DNA of 64,000 nucleotides, taken from Hamiltosporidium tvaerminnensis FI-OER-3-3. Lineage: Eukaryota; Fungi; Microsporidia. The notes under the pieces are model-generated. The model was not told where the DNA came from. It saw only the letters and a list, made by a program, of their open reading frames with translations, and ran no database searches. Below, piece by piece: positions 2,423 to 62,308 of the stretch (positions within the stretch are counted from its first letter, which is position 1; every line of letters begins with the position of its first letter). The stretch is taken from NCBI GenBank assembly GCA_022605425.2, contig CM061251.1:310001-374000 (forward strand), written 5' to 3'. A program made the translations under genes and the position numbers.

Positions 2423-3058
2423 TTAGGGAAGATCTTTATCAATAAGCATTTGATCTAGGCCTATATTCAAAGATGGTGCATCTAGATTCAATGGTAATTT
2501 TACGGATCTTATAGTTAAGTATTTTTCCTTAAAGCTGATCTCTGAATTATGTTTGTTCAAGAAGTCAATTCCTAAGATAACACTAGTTGGCATAGATGGT
2601 AGGACTAATGCATCAACTTTAAAAGTAATGGTTGGGTGCAATTTAAATTGAAGCGGAAATTCTACTTTTTCCAATATTTGATGGGTTTCTCCATTGGCTA
2701 CTGAAATGGTCTTGGTATTGTTTAATCTAATCGGTAGAATGCCTGTTTTTTTGAGGAATGTTGAGTTGACGTAACTGTATGATGCTCCGGTATCCACTAA
2801 TATGTTATCGAAAGTAGTATTGTTGATACGTGCGATGAATTCCATATTTTTGACCGGGTATTCTTTTTCTATAACCATCATAGATTGTTTTGAATGATTA
2901 ATATCTTTTCTTTTTATACCTCGCTTCCTTTCTTGTTGAGCGATGCACTCTTGGTCTGTATGATTATTACTTTTATGATAGGTGCATTTATATCGCTTAT
3001 CGGGTATTTTATTTGTGGGAAAAGAGTAATCTGATGTTCCTTGATGTATTTTATACAT
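2423..3058 (-). pseudogene. Gypsy Gag C-terminus + aspartic protease fragment
   Basis: CxxHx4Hx4C knuckle, LVDTGAS, VILGIDFL. Confidence 0.88.
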
Positions 3059-5597
3059 ACATTCTTTTTCTTGAATCTGTAATAGTGTTGCATGAGCTGT
3101 TGGGATTGTTTCCTCCGGTAAATCAACCCTTTTTTTCTTTGCTCAAGTGTTAGACCCATGATGAAATAATTAAATTTTTCTCGATTTAAGAGTTTCTCGT
3201 CAAGTGGATAGCAGTGATCAAGATATTTGAGTAAGTTCTCAACTGCTTTTGTATATAGGGTAAGATTCCTGTATTGCTTACACGAGATATTTCTTAATTG
3301 GTTAATCTACTTATGCCTATCTGAAGGCCGAAAGAAAAAGGTGATAATAGTATCGAGACATGTATCTACTTTTGATTGCGGTGCAAGATGAGACTTGATG
3401 TCTTCTGAAAGTAGGATAGAAAGCATGTTTCAGCTATGACTCTGATCCCATTCGTTCAAGGTAGCAATTAAACGGAAGTTAGTAATTCATGTGTGAACGA
3501 CTGATGGGTCAGTATAGACGTTAAGTTTGGTGAGTTGCAAACTTGGTCCGGTACTTCCATTGTTACCCCGAATTTGAAATGTAAACGTTTCTTCTGGTTG
3601 TATAAAGTTAAGCCTTGTGGTACATGTTGTCGTATTGATCGGCTTTGAGCTCAAAATGCCGTGTGCCGGCGTTTTAGAAGAATTAAATGAATGAATTTTA
3701 TTTATTAAAGGTCTTATCTTATGTTTCATTTTCACTCCTTCTTAGGGGTAAAAGAAATAATTATTTAAATAATTATTCAGGGGGGTTTAATGTCGTTACT
3801 CAGAATGAGTTTACGACAAGTAGTATTTTTAAAAAAATCATTTTTTGTGGATTTTATTTTTTTATCTTTGATAAGTTTTAAAGAATATTCGAATAAGATT
3901 GCTATTTTGACGCTTTAATGTATTTCGATTCTTTATCTCTTTCTACATTTAAAAAAATTGCAAATTCTTTTCAAATTATTTTATAATGATAAAGAGTAAA
4001 TATTAGTAGTATTATGGTTGTTTTAATGATTATTTTAAAATTTTTTTTATTGAAATATATTTTGTTATTTACATAGGTTTTGGATTATATTTTGAAAAGA
4101 CGGAAGAAGAAAGGAGATAAGTATTTGAGGAGGTGTGTAAATTCTATTATAATTATATTTATTTTAATTAAGAATAGAGGGAGGATGAATGTATATGAGG
4201 GTTGCATTAATTGGATTGAAATTATTTTTTTTAAGAAGAGAATAGATTAAGGAAGACTTCGGTCGTAAGTTAAACTTAAGCTATGTGTTTTTAATTTATG
4301 GATTTAAAGATAGATAACAGAGGAAATATAATAGTGTGCTAGAATCAATATAATTAGTTGTGTTTAAGGTTTAAAAACTACTTTCTAGAGGACCTAAATT
4401 TGTTTTTAGAAAACGGAAGTAATCATTTATGTTTGTTGATTTAAAATATATTGGTTTTTAGAATGTTCTTAGTTCACAGATAAATGGTTATACGTGCAAA
4501 AATAAGTTTTGAGGTATCATGAATCATTCGAATGATTATATCCTTAAATAAAAAGCTTGGATTAACTATAGCAATGAAGTCCTCTTTGTAGTAAGTTTAA
4601 ATCGAAATACCTAGATTATAGACACCCTTTTCAGGACACCTAAATATCTGAATAAAAGAAAATAAAGAAGAACAAGCGTATTGTGCGAAAAAACTGGTCT
4701 AAATGATAGATTTGTATGAACCTAGAAGAAAAAAACATCTTTATAAAACCTTGAACAGAAGCAATATAAAATCATATTATTTGCTTTGACTCATTTATAA
4801 GGTTTATACTGAATAAATGGTTTAGATATTTTTAAAAAAAAAAATTGTATTCGGTATAACAAAGTGCAAGTACGCACATTCGCTATTTTAATTTTAATTT
4901 AAAAATAAAAATGTATTTTTTGAAAGAGAAATATAGCCTCTAAGTAATTACTATACGAATTTAGATATTTATGTAATATACCTGTAAAGTATGCTTAGAT
5001 TTTTTTTATAGAAAAAAGAAAGAATTGATTAGAAAATTACATTGAAGTGACCTTGGTAAAATATAATTTAAGTAATTAAAAAATTATATAAGTCTCTTTG
5101 ATAAATTCTTCAAATTTAGTATGCGGAAATAAGAATGTACATCATATTTAACCGATTAAAATAAGAATAATAAAACTAAATTTATATTTTATAAAAAAAT
5201 AAAGTTAAAGAACAATCATTTAAACTAAAATTCATTATAAGTTTTATTCAAAATTTTAAAACTGCGAACCCGATTAAGTACAATTTTAGTTAATGTGTAG
5301 TATTTGCTTATAAATATAGTACCAAGGGTTTCTTATACTATAACCCGACAATAATTGATCTCGAATAACATATATGTGCTTTAGAAACCTATATTTGATA
5401 TAAACGTATGTTAAATTTCAAACAATCTAAAGTTCAGTGAACCAAGTTTTTTTTATACGAAAAATAGACTAAATCAAATGCCAACAAAAGCGTAAAGATA
5501 ATAAAGAGTTGCAATAAATAGAGCAAATAAGCACCAAAATAGGCAACAAAAGGCATGTACGTGCTAAAGAGAAGGACTTACAATTATAGCGACAATT

Positions 5598-6325
5598 AAT
5601 ATTGCAGAAAGTAAGATGAAATTACAGTAAAAAAATTCTCGACTCCAAATATAAAAAATGAAAAAATATAGCGCAAATAAATGCTACGGAAATATCTAAG
5701 GATAAGCTACTTAATGGAAATCATACGTAACTTGTATAAAGTAAATTTAATTTATTGTAATTTACCAAATGGGTAAATAATAACCACAATAAATATATTT
5801 TTTTGTTAAATTATTGAATATTTAACCCTGAATCATTTAAAATATGAAAGAGGCAAGTTGGTTTGTAGTATTAAAGCTATAAATCAGATGCTTTTTTAAA
5901 CAATTTTATAAGGAAACGAAAATATGATTAAAATATTACATTTGCACCGGTGAAGAAGAATTTGCAATTTTCTTCTATTACATATATTCGGTCGTTTAAT
6001 TTTTTCAAAAGAAATACTATTTTATCTATTTCTTACTATCGGTGGATTTATGGCGCCTTTTTTTAGAAGAAAAATGGAAATAAAAATTTAACTAGCAATT
6101 AAATGTTCCTGGGAATTGCTGATTTTCCGTATTTCTTAACCAAATACAAAAATGTGATAACATAGCTCAAGCAAAATACTTCGAAATGATTTTTTTAAGC
6201 AGCAAGATGAAGCATTAATTTAAAAATAATAAATTAATTGAAGGACATATATTTTTTTGTATATTCACCAATTTTTATCTTTTTCATAATATTTTTTTTG
6301 CTATTTTTTAATAGAATAAATAAAA
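5598..6325 (+). repeat. Dispersed ~720-bp AT-rich repeat 'B', copy 1
   Basis: Colinear with the reverse complement of 26951-27678 (e.g. gcaccggtgaagaagaatttgcaatt, taaccacaataaatatatt, aaggacat). Confidence 0.85.
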
Positions 6326-14124: not shown

Positions 14125-14530
14125 TACATATAAATAACACCTATTACTCATATACTTATAATAACACCTCTTAATCTTACTAATTGTTTTTTAACCCCTT
14201 TAAATCATACTACATATAAATAACACCTATTACTCATATACTTATAATAACACCTCTTAATCTTACTAATTGTTTTTTTGCACCCTTTAAATCATACTAG
14301 ATGTAAATAACACCTATTACTCATAATATTCTATCATTAAAACCTCTTAATCTTACTAATTGTTTTTTTAAACCCCTTTAAATCATACTAGATGTAATAA
14401 CACCTCTTAATCATAATATTCTATCATTAACACCTCTTAAACGTAATATTTATCATTAACACCCATTAAACATACTACATTGATTTTTCCACCCTTTAAA
14501 CACTGTACAATACTATTAACACCTCTTAAA
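14125..14530. repeat. Minisatellite of ~90-bp units downstream of Cdc20
   Basis: Repeated taaataacacctattactca...aacacctcttaatcttactaattgtttttt...ccctttaaatcatacta. Confidence 0.85.
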
Positions 14531-14570
14531 CCCACTTCCCTTTGTACATTACCCCCCTAATAACCCCTTA

Positions 14571-16619: not shown

Positions 16620-16755
16620 TTATAAATAATAGGGATTATAAATAATAAGGATTATAATTAATAGGGATTATAAATAAACGGGATTATAAATAATAGGGAT
16701 TATAACTAATAGGGATTATAATTAATAGGGATTATAAATAATAGGGATTATAAAT
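16620..16755. repeat. 16-bp minisatellite (tataaataatagggat)n, left half
   Basis: About 8 units; the same array resumes at 20561. Confidence 0.92.
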
Positions 16756-19700
16756 ATGGGTAGAAAGAAAAATGTTAGCAGCGAAATATCGAATAATACC
16801 AAAATAAAGGCTGCAAACGACGCTGATGAGGTGAAAAAGAGTGATAGTGAGATACAAAAATGTAAGCTACACCCACCGGCGATTCCCCTACCTTCCTCCT
16901 CCTACACAACAATAACACCTCCACCACCAAGCCAAACATGCAGTAAAATGCAAAATAGTGGGCTTGACACCTTACCTTCGCCTAATGCACCAGTTCCCTC
17001 TTCGGTTGAAGTCTCTGCGTGCGAGCCATCGTACGACATGACAAGCCCCTGTACTCTAGCTATTCCGGAAGGTAACAGGCTAATGGCATTGCGGACGATA
17101 TTCGATTCCGTAACAGCCGACCCGAAGGAATGGCCTCGAATTGTTTTTTTTGCAGTACAGACAAGGTTTGAAAGAATGCCAAGAAATGGCTGGACAGAGC
17201 TTCACAGGTACTATAATGAGAAATTTGGCTGCACTGAAACTCTCGAAGTGTTAAAAAAATTGGCACAAAGTGAGATGGGAAAGGATGTAAAATCAGAAGA
17301 GAATGGAGAGCGACGTAGAATCGCCACTTGTCTCGCTGATACATGCACCTTGACCGACACCACGGAGTACATAAACCTGAGAGATAAATTCTTGAGTAAA
17401 ATCAAAGAAATCTCTGAGAACGAAATTGGAAAAGTGGTGGTCCGAACTAGAAAACATCCAAATGAATTGGTTGATAGTAAAGTTCTGGATCTCATAAATC
17501 GAATAGTCGGTGAATATGCAGGAGCTCATGTACCTGAGTCAATTACGGAAGCCGCGTATATCATGCAAGCTGCGCAGGTATGCTATGACGAGGCAACACG
17601 TAAAGAGAAGCCTAGATCCGCTTGGAAGGAAAACATAGAAAGTAAAATTTCTAAGTTAGTACTTTCCAAAGATCTCCTCGAGAAAGCTCGTAAGCAGGAA
17701 AAGCTCTCCACTTCGGAAACGAAGAGCCTTAAGAAAATCATGCGAGAGTTTAATTTAAACTTGAGCAGCGTAACTGATCTTTCTGAGGCTTTAGTTAAGA
17801 AGAATGAGTCTTTGAATGTTTACGAGAAAAAAATTACGATGCATGAAAGTAGGAAGCAATTCCGAAAAGAGAATCGTATGTTTGAGCTTTTCCGAGGTCG
17901 ATTTTATCGTGGGTTATCCGAGCGTGTGGAATCCGAGCATGTGGTTAGCCGTGATGAAATTGTGAGTTTTTGGTCTACAATGTGGAACAAAAATGATGAC
18001 ACAGTCACGTACGATGATTATTTGATTCCATTTGTATCAGATAATCATCCGACCACGTTTCCTTCACTTGATGAATTTGTGAATATCATTAATTGGCTCC
18101 CTAATTGGAAAGCTGCTGGAATTGATGGTATTTACAATTTTTTCATTAAGAAACTTACAACTCTTCACAAATATCTTTATGATATTGTGAAAGTTATATG
18201 TTTAGAAGGAACACCTCAAGCTGATTGGTTTTACTGCGGGCTTACGTATTTGATACCGAAAGGAATTCCACGAAGAGGCTCTGACTACAGGCCAATCACT
18301 TGTATGTCCAACCTCTATAAGTTAACGACAAAGTGTGTAACGAAAGTCGTTCAACTCGAAGTGGAAAGGCGAGGGTTGCTTGCAGAGAACCAACTAGGGG
18401 CGGTAAGAGGTGTGCAGGGAGCGAAAGAGCAGGCTCTACTGAATATTGCCTTAAATAAAGAGTATGGAAATAATCTTAAGGCAACATGGATTGATGTAAA
18501 AAAAGCTTATGATTCAATAGATCATGCTTATTTAACTCAATGCATTGAAAACCTTAATTTACCTGATTGGATCCTGAAATTTATTAAGGTAATTATATCA
18601 AAATGGAAAATTGATATATCAGTAGGGCCTGAAAAAATCATGAGCAAGAAGATTGATAGAGGGATTCTACAAGGAGATAGTCTGTCACCTTTGTTATTTG
18701 TGTTGTGTATGGATCCATTAAGCCGAAAGCTTAATGAAAAATACACAAAAGTGACAGTACAAACAGATGCAGAATCCCATTCTACTAATCATCTCTTGTT
18801 TATTGATGATCTTAAGCTCCTTGCAAAAGACAGCTCCACATTGAGTGCTATGACAGGCGAGGCAAAGGAATTTTTAGAGGTGATTGGCTTAGAGATTAAC
18901 AAAGAGAAGTCAGCCACAAATGATACGTGTTGTGAAGATACTGCTACTCTTCTAGAAGGTGTTAGTGTTTACAAATATTTAGGAATAATAGAAGATAGCA
19001 GAGGAATCCCAACACGTAGCTCATTTGAAGAAGTACAGAGCAAACTTATATCAAGAGTTGAAAGACTTTGTCACACTAGATTAAATGCAAAAAATTTATT
19101 TTCTGCAATCAATCAACATGCGATATCGTTAATCAACTACCACATAGGAGTACTTCGACTTGAACCGGCTGACTTCTCTAAGTTAGATGAGGCAGTGCGT
19201 GCGGTGTTGGTTAAAAATAAGATACATCTCCGCCCAGGATGTAAAGAGCGGTTGTATCTTCCTAGAACAGAACTTGGAAGAGGTCTACATAGTGTTGAGT
19301 TGCGAAGCGAACATATGCTTCTGCAACTCTTGGATTGTCTGGAAAAAAGTAAAGAAATATCAACTAGACGAGCAGCAATCCTCAAGGTGGAGAATAATAA
19401 TAAAACCCATCTTGCACTAATAAAAGGCTTCTTAAAAGTAAAGTACAGGTTGGTAGAAGAAGTCACTAAGAAAAGTTTAGAAGAAGCTCAACTTGCAAAA
19501 CTATATAACGAAATAGAAAAACGAAAACTCCATTCAAAGTTATATAATGCAAGGAAAAATGAGCTTGTGAGTGTTAGTGACTCTTCAAGATGGCTAAAGA
19601 GAGGAAATATTAGGCCACGAAATGAAGCTGTGTTCTGCTATATCCAGGATAGAAATGTATTCTGGGGTGCAGATGGTGTGTGTCAACATTGCGGGAAGTC

Positions 19701-20517
19701 TGGTAAGACTGTGGATCATCTAGCAACTAGATGTGAAAAAATGCTAGGCCATGATTACACTAGACGGCATAATGAAGTGGTTAGATGCCTACACCTTCTC
19801 CTTCTAAATAGATATAAGTTTAAGTCTTCAAAACGAATAAGGAGCCACTCAGTTCAAGAAATTCTTGATAATGAGTATGCAGAGATAAGAGTGGACACCA
19901 GAATTAAAACTGATGTTAAAATTCGGAATAACAGACCGGACATATTTATTTTAGATAAGAAGAAGAATAAGATAACACTCATTGAAGTAGGAATCACTTC
20001 CCAAGATTCACTTCAAATAGTTGAAACTGAAAAACTTAGGAAGTATGACCTGCTAGCCAATGAGTTGGGTCTTATTTATAGGTGTAGTGTTGAGATAATC
20101 CCTTATGTGATGACCTGGGACGGTATTGTGACAAAATACCATAAATCTCATCTTAAAAGACTAGAAATACCCATGAATGTAGAAGCATACATTCAGTCTA
20201 TAGTACTTAAAAAGACAGTCGAAACTATTTCCTTTGATCGACGAAGAGGACTTGAGTCAGGACTAAATGCCGAAGAGAGCTGGGAGAGAGCGTCAATGGG
20301 TATTATTATGAGATCAGAGATGCATGAGGAACCAATACCCCCTTTAAAAGAAGCGAAAACAGAGGAAGATGGTGCCAAAAATTTTAAACCAAAATATAAA
20401 GCCCCCTTTATTTTACAAGGAGGAACCACTTTAGAGGAACCGACCAATAACATAAATGAAGAGTCGGATTTGGAAGAAGAGACAAATGTGGTTAAAGAGG
20501 TAGAAGAAAACATATAA
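16756..20517 (+). CDS. Reverse transcriptase + CCHC zinc knuckle + restriction-like (PD-(D/E)xK) endonuclease polyprotein, 1253 aa
   Basis: KAAGIDG, DYRPIT, WIDVKKAYDS, GILQGDSLSPLLF, NHLLFIDDLKL, YKYLG, ERLYLPRTELGRGL, CQHC..DHLATRC, RHNEV, RPDI..IEV. The NHLL.DDLKL and ERLYLPR..GRGL motifs are typical of the R4/Dong/Rex6 group. Confidence 0.95.
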   Translation: MGRKKNVSSEISNNTKIKAANDADEVKKSDSEIQKCKLHPPAIPLPSSSYTTITPPPPSQTCSKMQNSGLDTLPSPNAPVPSSVEVSACEPSYDMTSPCTLAIPEGNRLMALRTIFDSVTADPKEWPRIVFFAVQTRFERMPRNGWTELHRYYNEKFGCTETLEVLKKLAQSEMGKDVKSEENGERRRIATCLADTCTLTDTTEYINLRDKFLSKIKEISENEIGKVVVRTRKHPNELVDSKVLDLINRIVGEYAGAHVPESITEAAYIMQAAQVCYDEATRKEKPRSAWKENIESKISKLVLSKDLLEKARKQEKLSTSETKSLKKIMREFNLNLSSVTDLSEALVKKNESLNVYEKKITMHESRKQFRKENRMFELFRGRFYRGLSERVESEHVVSRDEIVSFWSTMWNKNDDTVTYDDYLIPFVSDNHPTTFPSLDEFVNIINWLPNWKAAGIDGIYNFFIKKLTTLHKYLYDIVKVICLEGTPQADWFYCGLTYLIPKGIPRRGSDYRPITCMSNLYKLTTKCVTKVVQLEVERRGLLAENQLGAVRGVQGAKEQALLNIALNKEYGNNLKATWIDVKKAYDSIDHAYLTQCIENLNLPDWILKFIKVIISKWKIDISVGPEKIMSKKIDRGILQGDSLSPLLFVLCMDPLSRKLNEKYTKVTVQTDAESHSTNHLLFIDDLKLLAKDSSTLSAMTGEAKEFLEVIGLEINKEKSATNDTCCEDTATLLEGVSVYKYLGIIEDSRGIPTRSSFEEVQSKLISRVERLCHTRLNAKNLFSAINQHAISLINYHIGVLRLEPADFSKLDEAVRAVLVKNKIHLRPGCKERLYLPRTELGRGLHSVELRSEHMLLQLLDCLEKSKEISTRRAAILKVENNNKTHLALIKGFLKVKYRLVEEVTKKSLEEAQLAKLYNEIEKRKLHSKLYNARKNELVSVSDSSRWLKRGNIRPRNEAVFCYIQDRNVFWGADGVCQHCGKSGKTVDHLATRCEKMLGHDYTRRHNEVVRCLHLLLLNRYKFKSSKRIRSHSVQEILDNEYAEIRVDTRIKTDVKIRNNRPDIFILDKKKNKITLIEVGITSQDSLQIVETEKLRKYDLLANELGLIYRCSVEIIPYVMTWDGIVTKYHKSHLKRLEIPMNVEAYIQSIVLKKTVETISFDRRRGLESGLNAEESWERASMGIIMRSEMHEEPIPPLKEAKTEEDGAKNFKPKYKAPFILQGGTTLEEPTNNINEESDLEEETNVVKEVEENI

Positions 20518-21255: not shown

Positions 21256-21877
21256 ATACGTTTAAATCTTAATTATATTTTTAAATATAAAAAAATTATT
21301 ATAACAAATTATATTAAAGATATTATTTTAAAGCTACTGTATTAATTATTAGAAAAGAGATCTGTGTAATGGTCTGTAATAGATGGGATATTTACTATTT
21401 CTTCATATTCCTAGAAATATTATTGTTTTTATATTTGTTATATTTTTTATTCTTACATTATTGAATTCATGAAAAAATAAAAGAAATAATATTTATATTC
21501 ATTTACAGAGATTTATCTATTACTTACTAGATTTTTATAAAAACATAATTAAATTTGGTGAGTTATATTCAGTTTTGGATGTATAAAATCTAAGAATTTA
21601 TATGTATTTTTTAAGAAATCAATTTATATTTTTACTGTGCCCTTTTTCGTATCTTTTATTTCATGTAAATATTTGGTTTTCTAATTGCTTTATAAGTATA
21701 TCTAGAAAAAATATTTTTTTATAGCTTATTTATGAATAATTTATTCCTTACTTGGTTAATTACAAATTTTATATTTCTCACTGTAAAATAAATTATTTTT
21801 TGTCGTTTAATATCACAAGGATAAATTTATTTATCCTTCTTTTTTTATTTCATTCTACTACTTTAATTTCATTATCT

Positions 21878-23175
21878 TTTTTATTTAATAAAATTCAGGG
21901 TTAAAATATTTTTTACCATTTTTACATGTTTTCTTCTACCTCTTTGACCACTTTTGTCTCTTCTTCCACATCCGATTCTTCATTTATGTTATTGGTCGGT
22001 TCCTCTAAAGTGGTTCCTCCTTGTAAAATAAAGGGGGCTTTATATTTTGGTTTAAAATTTTTGGCACCATCTTCCTCAGTTTTCGCTTCTTTTAAAGGGG
22101 GTATTGGTTCCTCATGCATCTCTGATCTCATAATAACACCCATTGACGCTCTCTCCCAGCTCTCTTCGGCATTTAGTCCTGACTCAAGTCCTCTTCGTCG
22201 ATCAAAGGAAATTTTTTCGACTGTCTTTTTAAGTACTATAGACTGAATGTATGCTTCTACATTCATGGGTATTTCTAGTCTTTTAAGATGAGATTTATGG
22301 TATTTTGTCACAATACCGTCCCAGGTCATCACATAAGGGATTATCTCAACACTACACTTATAAATAAGGCCCAACTCATTGGCTAGCAGGTCATACTTCC
22401 TAAGTTTTTCAGTTTCAACTATTTGAAGTGAACTCTTGGGAAGTGATTCCTACTTCAATGAGTGTTATCTTATTCTTCTTCTTATCTAAAATAAATATGT
22501 CCGGTCTGTTATTCCGAATTTTAACATCAGTTTTAATTCTGGTGTCCACTCTTATCTCTGCATACTCATTATCAAGAATTTCTTGAACTGAGTGGCTCCT
22601 TATTCGTTTTGAAGACTTAAACTTATATCTATTTAGAAGGAGAAGGTGTAGGCATCTAACCACTTCATTATGCCGTCTAGTGTAATCATGGCCTAGCATT
22701 TTTTCACATCTAGTTGCTAGATGATCCACAGTCTTACCAGACTTCCCGCAATGTTGACACACACCATCTGCACCCCAGAATACATTTCTATCCTAGATAT
22801 AGCAGAACACAGCTTCATTTCGTGGCCTAATATTTCCTCTCTTTAGCCATCTTGAAGAGTCACTAACACTCACAAGCTCATTTTTTCTTGCATTATATAA
22901 CTTTGAATGGAGTTTTCGTTTTTCTATTTCGTTATATAGTTTTGCAAGTTGAGCTTCTTCTAAACTTTTCTTAGTGACTTCTTCTACCAACCTGTACTTT
23001 ACTTTTAAGAAGCCTTTTATTAGTGCAAGATGGGTTTTATTATTATTCTCCACCTTGAGGATTGCTGCTCGTCTAGTTGATATTTCTTTACTTTTTTCCA
23101 GACAATCCAAGAGTTGCAGAAGCATATGTTCGCTTCGCAACTCAACACTATGTAGGCCTCTTCCAAGTTCTGTTC
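21878..23175 (-). mobile_element. Young 5'-truncated copy of the R4 element with an 11-bp TSD
   Basis: Near-identical to 19265-20560. TSD tttcattatct at 21867-21877 and 23176-23186. One CAG>TAG stop (22793) and a +1 frameshift near 22430. Confidence 0.95.
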
Positions 23176-23749
23176 TTTCATTATCTAAATTTTATATTTT
23201 TTTATTCATTTGAAAATGTATTTCACTTTTAACTTTAAAATATGAATTATAAATTTTATATGTGAAATATATGGACTAAAAGATATAAAAAGTGTAGGAT
23301 TTGATAAGATATTTCGTAATTAAATATTATTTTGTTAAAAAATAATTAATTAGGATATATAAATGTGTAATGTAAAATCTAAAGTGGTTATTTTATTTTA
23401 TTTTATTTTGTATTAATTAAATTAAATTTAATGTTTTATTATCACACTTTTATCAAAAAAATATAAAAAGTGTATATAAAGTGTATATAAAGTGTATTAA
23501 TAATACAATAGATATAAGAAATTTAAATAAATTATTTTATAAGTATTGATTGTTCAATCGGATATTTAATTGTGGCGAAAACAAAGGTTATGTTTTGTAT
23601 TTTGGTTCAAAAAAAAATTTAAACTTTTATTTTCTCCAAAAATCATCTTTTTAAATTTTTAATTCATATTTTTTTTACTCTAAATCTTTCTTTTTAAACT
23701 ATTTTTATATCACATTTATTTAGTATTTCTTATTCTCTATATCTCCTTT

Positions 23750-25279: not shown

Positions 25280-26940
25280 ATGTATATTGGCTTAGTGATT
25301 AACAAAGAGAAGTCAGCTTCAAATGATACGTGTTGTGAAGATACTGCTACTCTTCTAGAAGGTATTAGTGTTTACAAATATTTAGGAATAAAAGAAGATA
25401 GCAAAGGAATCCGAAACGTAGCTCATTTGGGAAAGTACAGAGCAAACTTATATCAAGAGTGGAAAGACTTTGCCATACTAGATTAAATGCAAAAAATTTA
25501 TTTTCTGCAATCAATCAACATGCGATATCGTTAATCAACTACCACATAGGAGTACTTCGACTTGAACCGGCGGACTTCTCTAGTTAGATGATGCAGTGCG
25601 TGCGGTGTTGGTGAAGAATAAGCTACATCTTCGCCCAGGATGTAAAGAGCGATTTATATTCTTAGAACTGAGCCCTGGAAGAGCCTTACATAGTGTTGAG
25701 CTGCGAAGCGAACATATGCTTCTGCAACTCTTGGATTGTCTGGAAAAAAGTAAAGAAATATCAACTAGACGAGCAGCAATCCTAAAGGTGGAAAATAAAA
25801 ATAAAATCCATCTTATACCAATAAAAAGCTTCTTAAAGTAAAGTACAGGTTAGTAGAAGAAGTCACTAAGAAAGATTTGGAAGAAGCTCAACTTGCAAAA
25901 CATTTAAAGAAATAGAAAAACGAAGACTCCATTCAAAGCTATAAAATGCTAGAAAAAAAGAGCTTGTGAGTGTCAGTGACTCTTCAAGATGGTTAAAGAA
26001 AGGGAATATTAGGCCACGAAATGAAGCTGTGTTCTGCTATATCCAGGATAGAAATGAATTATAGGGTGCAGATGGTGTGTGTCAGTATTGCAGGAATACG
26101 GTTAAGACTGTAGATAATCTAGCAACTTGATGTGAAAAAATGCTAGACCATGACTACACCAGACGGCATAATGAAGTGGTTAGATGCATACACCTACTTC
26201 TCCTAAATAGATATTTTTAAGTCCTAAAAATGGATTAGAGTCACTTAGTTCAGGAAATTCTTGATAATGGGTTTACAGAGATACGCGTTGACACCAGAAT
26301 AAAAACTCATGTTAAAATCAGAATATCAGACCCGATATATATTTTAAATGAGAAGAAGAATAAGATAACACTCATTGAAGTAGGAATCACTTCCCAAGAG
26401 TTCCTTTAAATAGTTGAAACAGAAAAACTTAGGAAGTATGCATTGCTAGCCAATGATTTGGGTCTTATTTTCAAGTGTGGTATTGAGATAATCCCTTATG
26501 AGATGACCTGGGACGGAATTGTAACAAAATACCATAATTCACACCTTAAAAGACTAGAAATACCCATGGATTTAGAGACATATATTTACTCTATAGTACT
26601 CACGAAGACGTCGAAACAATTTCCTTTGATCGACGAAGAGGACTTGAGTCAGGACTAAATGCCGAAGAGAGCTGGGAGGGAGCGTCAATGGGTGTTATTA
26701 TGAGATCAGAGATGCATGAGGAACCAATACCTCCTTTAAAACAAGCGAAGAATGAGGAAGACGCTGCTAAAAATTTAAAAAAAATAATACACCCCAAATA
26801 TCAGAAAGAAAAACCACGTTTGATGGAACCGACATAAACATAAATAAGAGTCGGATTTGGGAGAAGAAACAGTAGTGGTAAAAAAGCTACAAGAAAATGC
26901 TTGAAAATATAAATCTATTAGCCCGGAATTTTATAAAATA
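25280..26940 (+). mobile_element. Decayed 5'-truncated R4 copy (~1.65 kb)
   Basis: Colinear with 18880-20560; many stops and indels; ends agcccggaattttataaaata. Confidence 0.93.
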
Positions 26941-26950
26941 TATGATTTAC

Positions 26951-27678
26951 ATATTCTATATAAAAATAGCAAAAAAAAATATTATGAAAAAGAAAAAAAA
27001 TTGGTTAATATACAAAAAAAATAAATGTCCTTAATTAATTTATTATTTTAAAGTAATGCACCACCTTGATGCTTAAATACATAATTTCGAAGTATTTTGC
27101 TTGAGCTTTGTTATCAAATTTTTGTATTTGGGTAAATCAACACGGAAAATCAGATTTGCATAAAGATTTTATTCTAGTTAAATTTTATTAATTCAATTTT
27201 TCTTCTAAAAAAAACCGCCATAAATCGATCGATAGTAAGTAATAAACAAAATGGTATTTCTTTTGAAAAAAAATAAAACAACCGAATATATGTAATAGAA
27301 GAAGAAATTGCAAATTCTTCTTCACCGGTGCAAAATGTTTTATTTTAATCATGTTCTCATTTCCTTTAAAATTGTTAAAAAGGCAGTTGGTTTTTAGCTT
27401 ATTTCTACAAACCAATTTCCTCCTTCATCTTAAGAAAAAAAATTCTGGGTTAAATATTCAAAAATTTTACAAAAAAATATATTTATTGTGGTTATCGTTT
27501 ACTTAATTGGTAAATTACAACAAATAAGATTTACTTAATACAAGATGTTATGATTTCAATTACGCGGCTTAAGCCTCAATATTTCTGTAGCATTCTATTT
27601 GTTCTATATTTTTTAATTTTTTATATTTTGAGTCATGATTTTTTTTATTGTTATTTTATCATACATTCTGCGATATAT
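26951..27678 (-). repeat. Dispersed repeat 'B', copy 2
   Basis: Inverted homolog of 5598-6325. Confidence 0.85.
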
Positions 27679-27765: not shown

Positions 27766-27804
27766 TATTTTTAAAAAATAAAAAGTTAAAAAATTTTTAT
27801 TTAT

Positions 27805-28521
27805 TTTTATTTAAAAGTATCACATCTTTTTGAAACAGATAAGCGGTATATTTGTTTTAATGACATTAACGCAGTCTAGGTTTTAAATAATTGCTACCCT
27901 AACACTCCATCAGTAACCCCTGCGATACCTACGTCCCAAAGCCTTTCATCTACCATGTGTGTAGAACCTAAATAATAGGCGAGGCAGTTGCCCGGAGTTC
28001 GTTTTATGTCCGTTGCATGGAGTGTGATCGAAGGCCGAAGCCCCCCTGGGCTCCCCCCAAGACTATGCAGCATTTCCACTTACTCTACACTTTCTGAACC
28101 CAATAAACTTCTAGCTAAGACATATTTCAGAGACTTAAATGGGGTCCACCTAGACAGTGCAATGTTATACCAACAGGTATAACCTGCTACTTAGCTTTCC
28201 TGGCTTTAAATGGTTTTTTGTTTTTTATCTCCCAGGCGCTAAGTCTTCTAACCCGAGTGAGCAGAGGCTAGGTTTCCATGCTTTTATATGGCAATTACCT
28301 ACATGTTCAGCTGCGGTCTGCAATTTGGTTACATAAAAAACTACAAATAAATTCGTAGAAAAAGTTTCACCATTTCTTAGACCTCTCCTCTTCATAACAA
28401 CTTCCAATGAACAACCGAAGATGTAGTGTGGTTTTACTCCCACCAAAAATCCAAACAATGATCTTCGCACCAGTTTCACACACTCATTGCCAAGCAGAAA
28501 GTTTTTATTTTGGATATCCAC
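27805..28521 (-). mobile_element. ~710-nt structured non-coding element 'A', young copy
   Basis: Highly similar to 34431-35143 and 37201-37920; GC-rich relative to flanks; no clear TSD found. Confidence 0.92.
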
Positions 28522-34430: not shown

Positions 34431-35143
34431 CTTTATTTAAAAGTATCACATATTTTTAAAATAGTGGCAAGTGTTATATTTATTTTTCTGACATTAAGGC
34501 TGTTCTAGGTTAAATATAAATAACTGCTGCCCCAACACTCCATTGGTAACCCCTGCGATACCTACGTCCCAAAGCCTTTCATCTACCAGGTGTGTAGAAC
34601 CTAAATAATAGGTGAGGCAGTTGCTTGAAGTTCGTTACTGTCCGTTGCATGGAGTGTGATCGAAGGCCGAAGTCCATCCTGGGCACCCCTAAGACTATGC
34701 AGCATTCCCACTTACTCTACACTTTCTGAACCCAATAAACTTCTAGCTAAGATATATTTCAGAGATTAACATAGGGTCCACTGAGACAGTGCAATGTCAT
34801 ACCAATAGGTATAACCTGCTACTTAGCTCTCCCGGCTTTTAATGGTTTTTTGTTTTTATATCTCACAGGCGCTAAGTCTTCTAACCCGAGTGAGCAAGGT
34901 TGGGTTTCCATGCTTTTACATGGCAATTACCTACATGTTCAGCTGCAGTCTACAATCTGGTTGCATAAAAAACTACAAATAAATTCGTAGAAAAAGTTTC
35001 ACCATTTCTTAGACCTTTCCTCCTCATAACAACTTCCATGGAACAACCGAAGATGTAGTGTGGTTTTATTCCCGCCAAAAATCCAAACAATGATCTTCAT
35101 ACCGTTTAACTCATGCCAAGCAGAGTTTTATGTGGTTCCCACA
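34431..35143 (-). mobile_element. Element 'A', full-length copy with a 13-bp TSD
   Basis: TSD tgagagaaaaaaa at 34418-34430 and 35144-35156. On the minus strand it starts TGTGGGAACCACA and ends GTGATACTTTTAAATAAAG. Confidence 0.93.
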
Positions 35144-37200: not shown

Positions 37201-37920
37201 GATAACCACATAAAAAACTTTCTGCTTGGCAATGATTGTGTGAAACTGGTGTGAGGGTCATTGTTTGGATTTTTGGTAGAAATCAACGCACACTACATCT
37301 TCGGTCGTTCCATGCGAGTTGTTATGAGTAGAAGATTCTAAGAAATGGAGAAACTTTTTCTACAAAGATATTTGTAGTTTTTTATGTACCCAGATTGCAG
37401 ACAGCAGCTGAACATGTGAGTAATTGCCATGTAAAAGCATGGAAACCTAGCCTTGCTCACTCGGGTTAGAAGACTTAGCGCCTGGGAGATATAAAAATAA
37501 AACCCATTTTAAAGCCGGGAGAGCTAAGTAGCAGGTTATACCTGTTGGTATGACATTGCACTATCTAGGTGGACCCCATGTTAATCTCTGAAATATATCT
37601 TAGCTAGAAGTTTATTGGGTTCAGAAAGTGTAGAGTAAGTGGGAATGCTGCATAGTCTTGGGGGAGCTTAGGAGGGGCTTCGGCCTTCGATCAACACCAT
37701 GCAACGAACATTAACGAACTCCGGGCAACTGCCTCGCCTATTATTTAGGTTCTACACACCTGGTAGATGAAAGGCTTTGGGACGTAGGTATCGCAGGGAT
37801 TACCGATGGAGTGTTGGGGTAGCATTCATTTATTTTAAAGCTAGAACTGCGTTAATGTCATAAAAACAAATATAAAACTTGCCACTATTTTAAAAATATG
37901 TGATACTTTTAAATAAAGAT
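37201..37920 (+). mobile_element. Element 'A', full-length copy with a 12-bp TSD
   Basis: TSD attatatcatta at 37189-37200 and 37921-37932. Confidence 0.93.
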
Positions 37921-38324
37921 ATTATATCATTAAATCTAATAAAAAGAACTTAATTTTAGATTATTATTTAGAGAAAATCAGACTAATAAATTCTACTTTT
38001 TTGTTAACAGAATAATAATTTTGAATTTACGCTACATTATAATAATTATATTTACATGAATCAAGTATAGGTATTTTATAATAAAAATTTTCAATCTTTA
38101 AAACTGTAAAATATCTAAAATTTTGAAATAAAATGATTTTTATTTTTTCCAATATTTTTTGTATTTTACTTCTAAAAAAGTTAATTGAATATTTATTGTG
38201 AATTATAAGATTTTTAATGACAATATTTACAGTTAAAAGGTAAATTTTTATAAAAAATATATTTTGTAAGTTAAAATTATTATATATTTTAAATTGAAAA
38301 TATAATATAACCGAACAAAATACC

Positions 38325-40811: not shown

Positions 40812-40851
40812 AAATATGAAATAAATTTTTTTTTTGCATTTTTTTATTTTT

Positions 40852-40888
40852 TTATTTATCCTCCACGCTATAGCCCTGTACGAGCCTT
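40852..40888 (-). mobile_element. 3'-end stub of the RTE-derived element
   Basis: ttatttatcctccacgctatagccctgtacgagcctt matches 57979-58015. Confidence 0.7.
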
Positions 40889-40977
40889 TGCTTTTTTTGG
40901 AATTTTTTTAAATTTTAGAAAACTACAAACAATAAAAGTTTTAAAGGTTTAAGAGGTTAGTGTATAGTCTTTAGTTA

Positions 40978-41210
40978 CAAGGGTCTTAATACACAGAATT
41001 ATAAACAATATTTTAAAGGGGTCTTAATACACTAGTAATTCAACCTTTACTTAAAGGGGTCTTAATACACTAGTAATACAAATCATACTTAAAGGGGTCT
41101 TAATACACAGAATTATAAACAATATATCAAAGGGGTCTTAACATATTGTAATTCAATCCTTACTTAAAAGGGTCTTAATACACTTATAATACAAATCCTT
41201 CTTAAAGACT
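40978..41210. repeat. ~38-40-bp minisatellite between eIF1A and the TMEM33-like gene
   Basis: aaaggggtcttaatacac... about 6 times; followed by aaccctaaccct at 41221. Confidence 0.85.
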
Positions 41211-57386: not shown

Positions 57387-57976
57387 TGTTATTTGTATTT
57401 TGCAAAAATAAATACTTTTAATATTTTTCTCGAACACTCTTGGATTTTTTTGATAATCAGATACCAGCATAACAAAACAAAAAGGAACAATTATATGTTC
57501 TTTTTTAAAAAATCTATATTTTTTGATTTTTGGAAATGCATTTGGTAATAAAATGCACCTTATGTTATTTTGTACTCAAATATCGTTTTTCATTTAAAGT
57601 TTAATGAATACAGTTTAAACATAAATTTTTTTTAAGAATAGTAGTAGTACACCTTAGAGTAGATTTATTTGTTTTTAGACATTTTATCCCTTCGAATCAA
57701 ATGCTACAATAAAAAATTAGATCTTGCTAAGAATAAGGAATAGAAATTTATGCATGAAAAAATCAAAGCATCAATTTATGTTTAAAGATTGAATTAGATT
57801 GTTGAAAAACTTTAATCAAATTTCTCAAGATTGATTATTTGATCTCTTTTGTATAAAATAAACACATTCATTTAAAATAGTATTATGAAATTAAAATTAT
57901 GTGTATTTAAAGTTATATATAGAAACCCAACAAATTTTAATAATCACATAAGAATTTTATTATTTTAAAAAGCAAG

Positions 57977-58208
57977 CTTTATTTATCCTCGGCACTACAG
58001 CCCTGTACGAGCCTTATCATCAGTCAGTAATGCCACTCGTTGGTCTTTTTGTAGTGGGTTTGTTTACTTTTCGGGTAATGTAACAAGGCTATTTTTAAGG
58101 GTGGGTTGTTAGCCCTACGCCCAACATGAAGGACCAGTTCTTTTTAGTCGCTTCTTACGACAAGCAGAGAACACTTCAAGCCAATTATGCTCCCGGCATG
58201 GTAGAGAA
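57977..58208 (-). mobile_element. ~230-bp bipartite RTE-derived non-autonomous retroposon with a 10-bp TSD
   Basis: TSD aaaaagcaag at 57967-57976 and 58209-58218. 5' part has CTGCTTGTCGTAAGAAGCGACTAA and GTTGGGCGTAGGGCTAACAACCCACCCTTAAAAA (RTE 5'-UTR-like); 3' end AAGGCTCGTACAGGGCTGTAGTGCC + ATAAATAAA (RTE 3'-like). Confidence 0.78.
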
Positions 58209-60629
58209 AAAAAGCAAGTTTAAATGTGATAATTTAAATCTAAATACTAAAGGCTATGGTATAAAAATATATCGACTTTAAAACAAATTTCCATATCAAT
58301 TAAATAATGTTAACGCTTTTTTATATTAGATTCAAGCCATAGAATAAAAATTTCAATAGAAATTTCTAAACTGGATATAAATTTATTTATTAAAACAAAG
58401 CAAGTATAAATCGATGAATATAATACAAATTCATACTTGAAAAAATATTTTTGAAGAATAGAGATAATGTTTTCTTTTTTATACTTAGTAATATTTGTTT
58501 TTTATTTTTAAACAATTATTTTATCTCATAATTAAATTTAACAAAATCCTCCATTTAATTTTCTTCTTCATACGCCAAATATGTCTGTAGTTTTCGATGG
58601 TCAAGCAAAAAATTCTAGTTTTAAGTTCCATGTTTTATTTGACAGGTCATTTTCTATCCAGATGATTATAATTCAAGGTTTTAAATGATTATTATAAACT
58701 ACATTGATGTTTTTTTCTAAATATTCGTAAATATTTTGAAGTGGCTAAGATCATCTTGGATAGTAAAATATGTAATTAGTATTCTCATTCTTAGAAATAT
58801 AAATTGGTTGTACAAATATATTCCAGGGTATTTTAGCTATTCCTGATGTATTTTGGTGCATTTGTGATCAAAAGGGTCTCTATCTACATATATGAGAGTA
58901 TCTATACACTAATCTTCGAGGGCTTTGACCATTGCTACTTAGACAATCGTTAGTTTATTTGTCTTTTTTTTTAAAAAATATAAAAACATTTTGATGAGTA
59001 AATTTATCAAACACATGAAACCTTCTATTTTTTTATCCGCTATATATCAGGTTACTTGATTATAATTTAAGCCTCGATTTTTATTCTGTTTATATTCCTT
59101 ATTTATGTGCTATATTCTATATAATTTCTTTAATGGCATCAGCGCGGAGTCCTTTTTATGACCCAGATCTTTATTTATTTCATATTAGTAGAATATGATA
59201 TTCAAGTAATCAGTTTTTTGGTTATTTTGTTTGTGCTTATCTATTTCCGCTTCTGATATCACGATTCTTATTATTTTAGCAAAGTTACTATTTATTTACA
59301 CATTTCTTAAGAACTAAAATACTATTTTATCTTAGATATAACGGTCACTGCTTCTGTTTGGAGCTAAAGTATAAATAATTTTAATTACCTAATAATACTA
59401 GACATGTATGATTCTATTATTCAAAGTTTAAAATTGACGTTTACCTTTGTTTATTGTGCCTTTTTAACTTCTTTTTTGTTGCATCTCCTTTGTTCCTCGG
59501 TTTTATTCGTAGAAAGTCTTTACTAGGTTTAAATAGATTTTGAATTTTCATTTTTAAAACTTCTGCTTTCCTGAATATGATTTTTTTCCTTTAACTTGCT
59601 TCTTTAAGTTTAAATGAGTATTTTACAATTCCGCAATATCTTCTTTCAAGCTTATATATTTCTGTGTTAGTTAATCTAACATAGTAATTACAAATAATCA
59701 GTAAAATGTGTTTCTTATTTATATGTTATGTAGTTACTTGTTTCGGCAAGCTATTAAAAAAATAACAGATTCTATTGATATTGAATTATAAAGTATAATT
59801 TTTAATATTGTTGAAGGCATTAAATTAAAGTGACTTTTTTTACATACCCTTAAACTGCCAAAGACTCGTTTTACTTATATTATTTAAGACACTAGTTTTT
59901 AGTCTTTTGTGTTAGAAATTTAGTTTTCAGCAACTTGTTATACAATTTTGCTTTTTTTTATGATAAATAATATATTTTTATTTCACAGGCTTATTATACA
60001 AAAAAATTTTTATTTAAAAAAACACTGACATACAAATATATCTGTTAATATATTTAAAATAGATGGTGTAACATTGAAATAAATAAAAAAATACATTTAT
60101 TTTAGTCTGTTCATAATCCACTTACATATAAACAACATATTTACACAGCTCATTACTTTTTGAGTATATATTTTGCCGTTTCTAAAAATTTTAATAAAAT
60201 TTTTTAAAAAGAATGTATATTTAATTTTAAAGGTTTACTTTAATGGAAAAAATTTTCGTTATAATATTTAGCATATTGGTGTTATTATATATTAGAATAT
60301 ATTTGTTTCTTTACAAGGAAATATTTTTGTTTTTTCTGATATTTTTGAGTGAGTTTTCTCAAAACACGAAAATTGTTATAATTTTTAAAGTGAAAGTTTG
60401 AATTTTGAACTTTTTTTATATTTTTTGCCTACTGAAAGAAATGAAATGGTGAATTTCGGCTAAGCTGAAAACTTTAAGCAGAAGTAACTAATAATAATCA
60501 TATCTACAACCATAAATTATCCAAAGAATATAAAATATTTGTATCAAGTAGAAATAAAGTTTTTCGATTTAAGAAGAAAATTAAATATTACATATCTTCT
60601 CAATAACTAATTAAAATTCCATAGCCATT

Positions 60630-62308
60630 ATATTTAATAAAATTCTTGGTAAAATAATTTTCTCATTCTTAATATTTTTTTCAACCGTTTTAATAACTTC
60701 ACCGCCTTCTTCTAAATCCGAATCTTCATTTGCACAAATTTTTAGATCCGCAAATGAGGTTATGCTATCTAAAACAAGGTTGGAAATATTGTTTGTATTT
60801 TCAGTCTGAGCCCTATCTTCCTTCGAAGTCATCTTGATTTACAAGAGGTGTAGCTTGTTTACACTCTCAGCTCATTCAATAATACTTATTTGCTCTTTCG
60901 CAGCTCTTTTTAGCATTTAGTTGAGACACTAGCCTCTTTTTCGATAATAAGAAATTGTTTCGACTGCCTTCTTAAGTACTATTGATTGTATATATGCCTC
61001 TACATACATTGGTACTTGTAATATTTTAGCATAGTTCTTATGATATTTTGTCACAATACCCTCCCAAGTCACCACATAAGGGAATATCTCTACATACATT
61101 TTATAATAAAAAGTAAAACCTTTGCAAATATGTCATACTTACTAAATTTTTCAGTTTCAACTATTTGAAGTGAATATTGGGAAGTATTTTCTACTTCGAA
61201 GGGGTGTTATCATCCTGTTCTTCCTATCTAAAATAAATATTCGGGGGCTATTATTTCGGATCTTGACATACGTGTTTATCCATGATGTCCATTCTTATCT
61301 TTGCATACTCGTTATCAAGAATTTCAGGAACTGAATCGCTCTTAATCTGTTTTAAAGACTTAAAATTATATATATTTTTGAAGAGAAGCTGCGCAAAATT
61401 AATCCCTTCATTACTGTGTCTGGACATGTCTTTTCCTAATATTTTCTTAGGTCGCTTTGCTAGATAATCTACAGTTTTACTAGACCAACCGCAGCCATGA
61501 CACATACGTTCTGCTCTTAAGAAAACATTCCAATCCTGGGTATAGCAAACCACCGTTTTGCCACATGGCCTAATATTCGCTTTCTTCAGCAATCTAGAAC
61601 AGTCACCAACATTTATAATCTCATTTTTTCTTGCATTTTATATAACATTGAGAAAAAGTTTATGTTTTTTAGATTTCGTTATATAGTGCTGCAAGCTGAG
61701 CTTCTTCTGCACTCTTCTTTGTGATCTCTCTTTTCAACCTATACTCTTTTTTTAAAACTTTTTATTGATGTAAGGGTGGGGTTGTTAGTATTTTTCACCA
61801 TTTAGATTCTGCTCTTCTAGATGATATTTTTTTATCTTTTTTCTAGACAATCCAAAAGTTCAGAAGCATATTTTCACTTCGCAACTCGAGAATATGAAAG
61901 CTGCTATTAAGTTCTATCTGGAAAGGAACAAATTTTCTTTACATCATGGAAAATGAAATGCCTCGTTTTTTTTTACCAACAACATATGCACAGAATCATA
62001 TTAAGTAGAGAAATCGGCTTATTAAAGTTGAAGTACTCTTATGAGATAGTTTATTTAAGATATCACATGTTGATTAAATTGAGAAAATATTTTTTGAGTA
62101 TTTAATCTAGTATGGCAAAGTCTTTTGACCATTGATATCAGTTTATTCTGTACTTCTTCGAACGACTTACTTGTTTAAATTTCTCTGGTACCTTCTATTA
62201 TTCCAAGGTATAAATAAACACATATTCCTTCAAGAAGAGTAGCTTTAGTTTCGTAACACGCATCATTTGTCGATAGCTTCTTTTTGTTATATCCCTAAGC
62301 TAATTACA
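60630..62308 (-). mobile_element. Old, heavily decayed 5'-truncated R4 copy
   Basis: Remnants of YLGIIEG, EILDNEYAKIR, FPYVVTWEGIVTKYH, NEDSDLEEG; colinear with 18880-20557. Confidence 0.88.

What the first reader, a model, noticed from the sequence alone, without database searches (positions are those of the whole stretch)
58135..58205. Pseudoknotted ribozyme-like motif at the 5' end of an RTE-derived mini-retroposon
The minus-strand RNA reads AUG-CCGG-GAGCAUAA-UUGG-CUUGAAGU-GUUCU-C-UGCUU-GUCG-UAAGAAG-CGAC-UAAAA-AGAAC. It can form hairpin CCGG/UUGG, whose loop GAGCA pairs with UGCUU (pseudoknot), an outer stem GUUCU/AGAAC and an inner hairpin GUCG/CGAC followed by UAA. The helix order equals that of pistol and of P3-permuted twister ribozymes, but their catalytic nucleotides are absent. 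Established: RTE-clade 5' UTRs carry HDV-like or twister ribozymes at this position. From memory, GTCGTAAGAGGCGACTAA recurs in animal RTE 5' UTRs. Inference: a candidate unclassified self-processing RNA motif.
Basis: partly seen in the sequence, partly recalled or inferred. Interest (0 to 1): 0.75.

Follow-up and report, generated by a model that had tools for sequence, protein, structure and literature searches.

The report
Double-pseudoknot RNA shared by retroposons, viruses
A short jumping element in a microsporidian parasite begins with a worn copy of a 70-base RNA fold, predicted from matched base changes to form two pseudoknots, that also heads animal retrotransposons and follows the last stop codon in several RNA viruses; it matches no Rfam family and likely blocks 5'-to-3' RNA decay to set an RNA's front end, though self-cutting is not excluded and neither has been tested.

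Summary
The sequence is as quoted and lies at the 5' end of a 232-bp multi-copy retroposon (58208-57977, minus strand, 10-bp TSD) in a Hamiltosporidium genome. Relatives define another, covarying fold of five helices in two tandem pseudoknots (S1/S2; X/P3, carrying hairpin P4), with conserved AGAAUW, U and UAA. It is neither pistol- nor twister-ordered and has no Rfam match. The same fold heads I-clade LINEs and many short retroposons, whose copies start 0-1 base before S1. It also lies 6-101 nt after the last stop codon in five RNA viruses, and between genes in a Gypsy element and IIV-6. No credible prokaryotic carrier was found. Best reading: an exoribonuclease-resistant RNA that sets 5' ends (0.42); rivals are a new self-cleaving ribozyme (0.30) and a translation or host-factor module (0.20). 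No activity was tested and no RNA reads were obtained.

The parts
57977..58208 (-). 232-bp non-autonomous retroposon, one decayed copy of a family with many copies in this organism; GC 45% against 20-21% in the flanks
58209..58218 (-). target-site duplication, 5' copy (CTTGCTTTTT)
57967..57976 (-). target-site duplication, 3' copy
58138..58206 (-). whole double-pseudoknot RNA motif (order S1, S2, S1', AGAAUW box, S2', X, P3, X', U, P4 hairpin, UAA, P3')
58203..58206 (-). S1 5' strand (CUCU here; CCCC in most other copies of this organism)
   Evidence: loose ends at 58202; parse
58202..58202 (-). one-base loop L1 (A here; U in 19 of 21 family representatives)
58195..58201 (-). S2 5' strand, 7 nt
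58190..58194 (-). S1 3' strand (GGGAG; 3-4 pairs in this family)
58183..58188 (-). conserved loop box (AUAAUU here; AGAAUA or AGAAUU in the other 20 of 21 representatives, which were kept on this box; a subfamily of this organism reads AGAAUU)
58176..58182 (-). S2 3' strand; 58176 is G in most other copies, which restores the terminal C-G pair
58173..58175 (-). X 5' strand (AGU), first helix of the second pseudoknot
   Evidence: 61/66 paired at a fixed register, shuffled 40.1
58166..58170 (-). P3 5' strand
58162..58165 (-). X 3' strand (GCU) and the conserved single U
58147..58161 (-). P4 hairpin GUCG/CGAC with a 7-nt loop (58152 is G in most other copies)
58143..58146 (-). UAA(A) junction; UCA, UAU and UAC occur in relatives
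58138..58142 (-). P3 3' strand; two positions (58141, 58139) are G in most other copies and pair with P3 5'; broken in this copy
58085..58125 (-). further 5'-UTR remnant shared by many copies; resembles RTE 5' UTRs (recalled, not tested)
57977..58015 (-). LINE-derived 3' end: last codons KARTGL-stop and a short tail; RTE-like by recall
40851..40888 (-). 5'-truncated second copy, 3' end only (89% over 38 bp)

Best explanation
The 70-base motif is a compact RNA module, predicted from covariation to fold into two stacked pseudoknots, that likely works as an exoribonuclease-resistant RNA: host 5'-to-3' exonucleases (Xrn1 or Xrn2/Rat1) would chew a longer transcript from upstream and stall at S1, leaving an RNA that begins one base before S1. 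In a promoterless retroposon this would free a full-length template from a host read-through transcript, the job that HDV-like and twister ribozymes do in other LINEs. In RNA viruses it would leave a 3' subgenomic RNA, and in the Gypsy element and IIV-6 an RNA for the downstream ORF. Shown: the five helices by covariation, the sharp 5' boundary of retroposon copies, the positions in viruses. Inferred: stacking of S1-S2-X-P3, a contact between the P4 loop and the AGAAUW box (suggested by the 7-bp S2, fixed by my parse but with 6-7 nt between box and X in nearly all copies), a ring round the 5' strand, and nuclease stalling itself. The window copy has lost pairs in S2 and P3 and may be inactive.
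For: Fold: X 61/66 at a register fixed by sequence anchors alone (shuffled 40.1, slid 20-36), S2 142/154 (124.5), P3 75/88 (59.2) in 22 representatives; S1 71/84 (60.5) in 21; RNAalifold on a structure-blind alignment returned S2, X and P4 unprompted, 10 of 16 pairs with changes on both sides; P4 45/48 and P3 44/48 in 12 held-out copies. 5' ends: in 83 of 122 metagenome copies with a recognisable S1 start, information is at most 0.15 bit from -15 to -2, 0.3 at -1 and 0.9-1.7 from +1; all 6 perfect TSDs of 11 nt or more end 0-1 base before S1, as do 15 of 20 TSD candidates. No excess G at -2 in family A (7 of 30), so no sign of a copied cap (weak). RNA level and non-destructive: sense strand, 6, 11, 24, 74 and 101 nt after the last stop codon of five RNA viruses, among them Hubei tombus-like virus 21 and Shuangao toti-like virus, with a tandem second copy in one; 10 nt after the pol stop of a Gypsy element that has a third ORF; alone between genes in IIV-6. 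3'-UTR, tandem and intergenic placement is typical of xrRNAs, and class 3 xrRNAs halt Xrn1 at the base of the first helix (PMC8374639, PMC12397905, passages). No credible prokaryotic carrier: 17 of 26 GTDB hits are core-only chance hits (at most 30 bits), and the other 9 look like eukaryotic repeats in the bins (judged by context).
Against: No activity was measured and nothing shows a ring. Known -1 frameshift pseudoknots do not stall Xrn1 (PMC10321173, abstract), so an H-type pseudoknot alone is not enough. None of the defining features of known xrRNA classes is present. Only one base before S1 is inherited, which fits only if S1 itself is the leader held in the enzyme. The retroposon slot is the one that self-cleaving ribozymes are known to fill, IIV-6 already has an HDV-like ribozyme (PMC8256844, passage), and fusariviruses tolerate hammerheads in front of internal ORFs (PMC13725137, section 13). 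Three or four of the five viral contigs may be incomplete, so a downstream ORF is not excluded. Whether Hamiltosporidium keeps Xrn1 was not tested. The shuffles do not correct for kinship (four annelid-type families share X), and two viral copies have no clear P3.
Confidence: 0.42

Rival explanations
1. A new class of self-cleaving ribozyme that cuts just 5' of the purine before S1 (the HDV or hatchet position), keeps the whole fold on the 3' product, and so frees the retroposon RNA; AGAAUW, the single U, the P4 loop and UAA would form the active site.
For: Copies start 0-1 base before S1, with a family-specific purine at -1 (A in 20 of 30, G in 25 of 35). Same slot as HDV-like and twister ribozymes of LINEs (PMC6765202, PMC5786205, PMC8501958). 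Compact double pseudoknot with conserved unpaired bases. Found between genes in IIV-6, which also has an HDV-like ribozyme, and ribozymes occur in UTRs of RNA viruses (PMC13725137).
Against: Bases around the implied cut are not conserved across families, and the loop next to the S1 end takes inserts of 2-66 nt. Cutting in a viral 3' UTR or inside a Gypsy genome would separate coding RNA from replication signals; the viral ribozymes in the section I read precede ORFs. UAA varies to UCA, UAU and UAC. No prokaryote or phage carrier was found, unlike the widespread ribozyme classes (recalled).
Confidence: 0.3
2. A cap-independent translation or host-factor-binding module (3'-CITE-like in viruses, IRES-like in front of LINE ORF1, Gypsy ORF3 and the IIV-6 ORF) that non-coding retroposons keep because it brings their RNA to ribosomes, where the LINE protein is made.
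For: Non-destructive; eukaryote-restricted; sits right after stop codons or before ORFs; two-ORF LINEs carry it at the head of the 5' UTR.
Against: It does not explain why copies from several families begin within one base of S1; a separate promoter or processing signal would have to coincide with S1 each time, and the spacing to the AGAAUW box varies from 2 to 66 nt.
Confidence: 0.2
3. The reader's fold (loop GAGCA pairing with UGCUU), a degenerate pistol or P3-permuted twister; or a DNA-level internal promoter whose pairings are incidental.
For: The four helices can be drawn on the window copy and on one viral copy (2 of 21 reach 5/5); UAA follows the inner hairpin as in twister.
Against: Pairing at shuffle level in 21 representatives and 12 held-out copies; the alternative helices covary; the motif occurs in RNA viruses with no DNA phase.
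Confidence: 0.04

Closest known systems
HDV-like ribozymes at LINE 5' ends (R2, RTE, Baggins, L1Tc; PMC6765202, PMC5786205, PMC8256844, PMC5640933, passages; Ruminski 2011 and Webb 2009 not read)
   Same: Position at the first base of non-LTR elements, retention in bipartite non-autonomous copies, double pseudoknot, a hairpin followed by (C)UAA before the last helix, presence in IIV-6.
   Different: Two tandem H-type pseudoknots instead of a nested one; no P3/L3/P1.1; the C before UAA is paired in P4 and changes to G with its partner, so it cannot be the catalytic C.
Exoribonuclease-resistant RNAs: flavivirus classes 1 and 2, plant class 3, coremin (PMC8374639, PMC12397905, PMC10520033, passages)
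   Same: Compact pseudoknotted fold at the start of viral 3' UTRs, tandem and intergenic copies, spread over unrelated virus families, RNA end at the base of the first helix.
   Different: No three-way junction, no T-loop/AGY network, no YGAD loop or coremin spacer; found mainly in cellular retroposons, where the 2021 review says no xrRNA had been characterised.
Twister (including S. mansoni Perere-3 T-variants, PMC8501958, first quarter of Results) and pistol (PMC6154101, passages)
   Same: A hairpin followed by UAA, closed by an outer helix and crossed by a short pseudoknot.
   Different: The pseudoknot strand is not in the first hairpin's loop; no T2 or L4 equivalent; elements keep the whole motif instead of starting at the UAA cut as Perere-3 does; UAA varies.
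Hatchet ribozyme (PMC6561176, passages)
   Same: 5' hairpin with an A-rich loop, conserved A-rich strand before the last helix, functional site at the extreme 5' end.
   Different: Hatchet has four nested stems, a conserved three-base linker between P1 and P2 and no Watson-Crick pseudoknot; here the base after S2 pairs at once in a covarying helix.

Membership tests
any Rfam 15 family | covariance-model match | tested here: not met
   No relevant hit at E up to 10 on the window region, E up to 5 on five viral loci, E up to 10 on the 131-base IIV-6 copy, or at gathering score on five more loci
HDV-like ribozyme | nested double pseudoknot P1-P2-P3-P1.1-P4 | tested here: not met
   Covarying order is a b a' b' c d c' e e' d'; a crude descriptor without positive control matched 1 of 25
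HDV-like ribozyme | unpaired invariant catalytic C in J4/2 | tested here: not met
   The C before UAA pairs in P4 and becomes G with a compensatory change in 5 of 12 held-out copies
HDV-like ribozyme | element starts at the first helix | tested here: met
   TSDs end 0-1 base before S1
twister ribozyme (type P3) | T1 and T2 pseudoknots from the P4 loop | tested here: not met
   Loop-to-junction pairing at shuffle level
twister ribozyme (type P3) | cut in the UAA loop, element begins there | tested here: not met
   Copies begin about 60 nt upstream of UAA; Perere-3 begins at the cut (PMC8501958)
pistol ribozyme | 6-bp pseudoknot between the P1 loop and J2/3; two-base GU junction | tested here: not met
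   No such covariation; the junction is UAA(A) (PMC6154101)
hatchet ribozyme | conserved 3-nt P1-P2 linker and L2 residues, no pseudoknot | tested here: not met
   The bases after S2 vary freely and covary with X' (PMC6561176)
self-cleaving ribozyme (any class) | site-specific protein-free cleavage | not testable with these tools
   Needs an in vitro assay
flavivirus xrRNA, classes 1 and 2 | three-way junction with two pseudoknots | tested here: not met
   No three-way junction in the covarying fold
plant class 3 xrRNA and coremin | P1/P2 stem-loop with apical-loop pseudoknot, T-loop and AGY; or YGAD hairpin plus spacer | tested here: not met
   Coremin pattern 0 of 25 (no positive control); topology differs (PMC12397905, PMC10520033)
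xrRNA (functional class) | stalls Xrn1 without protein cofactors through a ring round the 5' end | not testable with these tools
   Needs an Xrn1 assay or a structure
bipartite non-autonomous RTE element (PMC5786205) | 5' and 3' ends of an RTE LINE, with TSD | tested here: inconclusive
   TSD, many copies and an ORF-end remnant are shown; the clade is assigned from recalled motifs only, and no partner LINE was fetched

The most novel reading that the evidence does not exclude
An undescribed class of folded RNA, exchanged among LINEs of two clades, a Gypsy element, a large DNA virus and at least three lineages of RNA virus, that gives retroposons their 5' end by blocking host exonucleases: an xrRNA encoded in cellular genomes and a ribozyme-free, promoter-free route to full-length retrotransposon RNA. 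If it cleaves instead, it is a new class of self-cleaving ribozyme; either outcome is new.
Probability: 0.6. Interest if true: 0.9.

Novelty: categorically new. Interest (0 to 1): 0.8.

Why it matters
New classes of self-cleaving ribozyme and of xrRNA are rare. This fold fails every family test I could run, is abundant in animal genomes, and is shared by retroelements and unrelated viruses, so it is a portable functional module. Two standard in vitro assays on a 90-base RNA tell the leading readings apart. If it blocks Xrn1, it answers the open question of whether xrRNAs exist in eukaryotic genomes (posed in PMC8374639) and shows how promoterless LINEs without a ribozyme get precise 5' ends. 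'Categorically new' refers to the RNA family; what it does would parallel known kinds. The novelty claim rests on Rfam 15 and ten full-text searches of open papers; Repbase or Dfam entries, subscription papers, figures and supplementary motif lists were not seen.

Tried and rejected
No whole genome is held. Single-sequence folding is uninformative. No RNA holder was listed, and two raw-read runs laid 0 reads: no test of expression or RNA ends. A loose AGAAT...TGTCG...CGACTAA scan of viral contigs gave 115 stretches, all but 4 chance by inspection; a second relaxed scan gave 20 with no new carrier, a third 13 with none. Phage and plasmid BLAST gave nothing meaningful. Stop-codon readthrough was considered because of the 6-11 nt spacing, and set aside: by my reading of the printed sequence the Gypsy frame stops again within about 30 codons, and LINE 5' ends have no upstream ORF. 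A DPE-like promoter role for the AGAAUW box was rejected because its spacing varies. Ribozyme regexes are crude, mostly recalled and lack positive controls; twister matched 2 and pistol 4 of 25, taken as noise. The first structural parses optimise pairing, so their shuffles are lenient; searches are the fairer tests. In one search, 2 of 23 representatives were dropped for a missed box. X in held-out copies barely varies, so its shuffle is uninformative (34/36 against 32.2). Motif strings were not found in any relevant paper or in the text of the Kojima 2018 supplement (alignments held as pictures could hide it). PMC5862402 says nothing on microsporidian Xrn1, and PMC7313128 nothing on RTE, SINE or ribozymes.

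Full report
Setting. The window is AT-rich. Proteins of three of its genes cluster at 90% with named Hamiltosporidium proteins, so it comes from a microsporidian of that genus, a group rich in transposons (PMC7313128, passages). No whole genome is held. The finding lies in a GC-richer island (45% against 20-21%) at 58208-57977 on the minus strand, flanked by a perfect 10-bp duplication at 58218-58209 and 57976-57967. It ends in the codons KARTGL-stop and a short tail; a second 3' end lies at 40851-40888. That these ends are RTE-type is recalled, not tested.

Observation. The quoted letters are correct. The stretch alone folds no better than shuffles (z -0.89) and has no Rfam match. Contigs of public DNA runs show a large family: 236-305 contigs per run on the 801-base region and 171-217 on the 95-base motif, with the main loose ends at 57981 and 58202 and unlike flanks. 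Some runs may be the source of this DNA. The majority letters of other copies differ from the window at 58176, 58172, 58152, 58141 and 58139. These variants are unphased.

Relatives. The 18-base core found 5 viral stretches, 26 in GTDB genomes and 122 in 1 of 64 parts of the metagenome collection, about 9300 estimated. Most metagenome hits are interspersed repeats with animal-like tails; 74 of 121 parsed copies score above the best of 60 shuffled controls. Of the GTDB hits, 17 have the core only and score at most 30 bits with model R1; 9 have upstream features and look like eukaryotic repeats in the bins, two of them at the head of two-ORF LINEs with APE and RT, one complete with RNase H, which fits the I group. 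R1 found 19 matches in five such bins; 12 that were neither training copies, near duplicates nor partial served as a held-out set.

Fold. All families fit: S1 (4-5 bp), one base (U in 19 of 21), S2 (7 bp), S1', a loop of 2-66 nt, AGAAUW, S2', X (3-5 bp), 1-6 nt, P3, X', U (20 of 21), P4 hairpin with a 7-nt loop, UAA(A), P3'. With registers set by the AGAAUW box and the P4 start alone, X pairs in 61 of 66 cells (shuffled mean 40.1, 0 of 20000; slid 20-36). With the same search freedom in the control, S2 gives 142/154 (124.5) and P3 75/88 (59.2) in 22 representatives, and S1 71/84 (60.5) in 21, with CCCG/CGGG changing to GCCC/GGGC and GCCG/CGGC. On a MAFFT alignment of 19 sequences RNAalifold chose S2, X and P4 by itself, and 91% of cells paired against 74% shuffled. 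P4 was invariant there because I had selected on it; in held-out copies it pairs 45/48 (36.7) with GUCG/CGAC changing to CUCG/CGAG and GAUG/CAUC. Caveats: the shuffles ignore kinship; no alignment tool handled S1 and P3, which were counted by script; two viral copies lack a clear P3.

5' ends. In 83 of 122 metagenome copies with a recognisable S1 start, flanks are random up to -2, a purine is favoured at -1 and conservation starts at +1. Of 20 TSD candidates 15 end 0-1 base before S1, including all 6 perfect ones of 11 nt or more. The -1 base is family-specific (A in 20 of 30, G in 25 of 35) and family A has no excess G at -2. So the RNA template begins one base before S1, and nothing that could be a separate promoter or ribozyme precedes it.

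Other carriers. The motif lies in the sense strand after the last ORF of five RNA viruses: Shuangao toti-like virus (24 nt after the stop), Hubei tombus-like virus 21 (6 nt), a tetravirus-like capsid contig (11 nt, two records), an RdRP_3 contig (74 nt) and a contig with an S-domain coat gene (101 nt, with a second copy in which the contig ends). It stands alone 121 nt after 206R of IIV-6, before a kinase-like ORF ('kinase-like' by eye, no Pfam hit), and 10 nt after the pol stop of a Gypsy element with a third ORF. It is therefore an RNA-level module that moves between kinds of element.

Mechanism. Whatever it does must give a sharp 5' end in retroposons and be tolerable inside RNA genomes. 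An exonuclease block does both: it acts only on RNA that is already being degraded, and 3'-UTR, tandem and intergenic copies are the known xrRNA pattern (PMC8374639, PMC10520033, PMC12397905, passages; the last reports a halt at the base of the first helix). The lack of a prokaryotic carrier fits a eukaryotic partner. I give it 0.42. Against it: no ring or stalling is shown, and plain frameshift pseudoknots do not stall Xrn1 (PMC10321173, abstract). A new ribozyme cutting before S1 (0.30) fits the slot (PMC6765202, PMC5786205, passages), IIV-6 (PMC8256844, passage) and viral UTR ribozymes (PMC13725137, abstract and section 13), but fits the 3' UTRs and the unconserved cut region poorly. A translation or host-factor module (0.20) fits the viral positions but not the precise ends. 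The roles could be combined, one per pseudoknot.

Comparison and novelty. HDV-like, twister, pistol, hatchet and the described xrRNA classes each fail a defining feature (membership table; PMC5640933, PMC6154101, PMC6561176, PMC10085705 read as passages; PMC8501958 abstract and first quarter of Results). Rfam gave nothing in four searches. Ten full-text searches (seen as listings unless named above) turned up no description. Ruminski 2011, Webb 2009 and Weinberg 2015 were not read, and supplementary motif catalogues, bioRxiv supplements and Repbase or Dfam could hold it. The scan's own look-ups by sequence and place found nothing; by words they gave one full match on an unrelated short repeat and otherwise HDV-type heads, and nothing for the xrRNA wording.

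Verdict. Interest 0.8.

Noticed in passing
window 16738-20517 (+): Intact 1259-aa ORF of a non-LTR element with RT and a C-terminal restriction-like endonuclease (by eye), with decayed copies at 21873-23176, 25286-26940 and 60628-62307.
   Followed up: no
window 311-3306 (-): Broken Gypsy-type gag, protease, RT and integrase remnants (by eye).
   Followed up: no
window 27802-28518, 34431-35137, 37201-37921; and 5599-6324 with 26946-27676: Two families of about 720-bp dispersed repeats, 84-89% alike, in both orientations; type not determined.
   Followed up: no
window 40972-41207 and 14125-14531: Tandem repeats of about 115 and 86 bp period; the first lies next to the orphan 3' end of the retroposon family.
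   Followed up: no
L316 (G002:C1277): Gypsy-type element whose integrase ends in a PHD finger and is followed, after the RNA motif, by a 982-aa third ORF whose first half has no Pfam match.
   Followed up: partly
L068:1365-1517, L294:1501-2075, L302:1501-1766, L271:1-153: Tandem or closely spaced pairs of the motif in retroposon loci and in one RNA virus.
   Followed up: partly
L312 (G003:C4:518500-527500), L313, L290-L307: Several bacterial genome bins in GTDB contain animal-type LINEs and SINE-like repeats, among them a complete two-ORF LINE, most likely host contamination.
   Followed up: partly
L224:2465-2482: A GC-rich palindrome lies directly upstream of the motif in the AT-rich IIV-6 intergenic region.
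   Followed up: no
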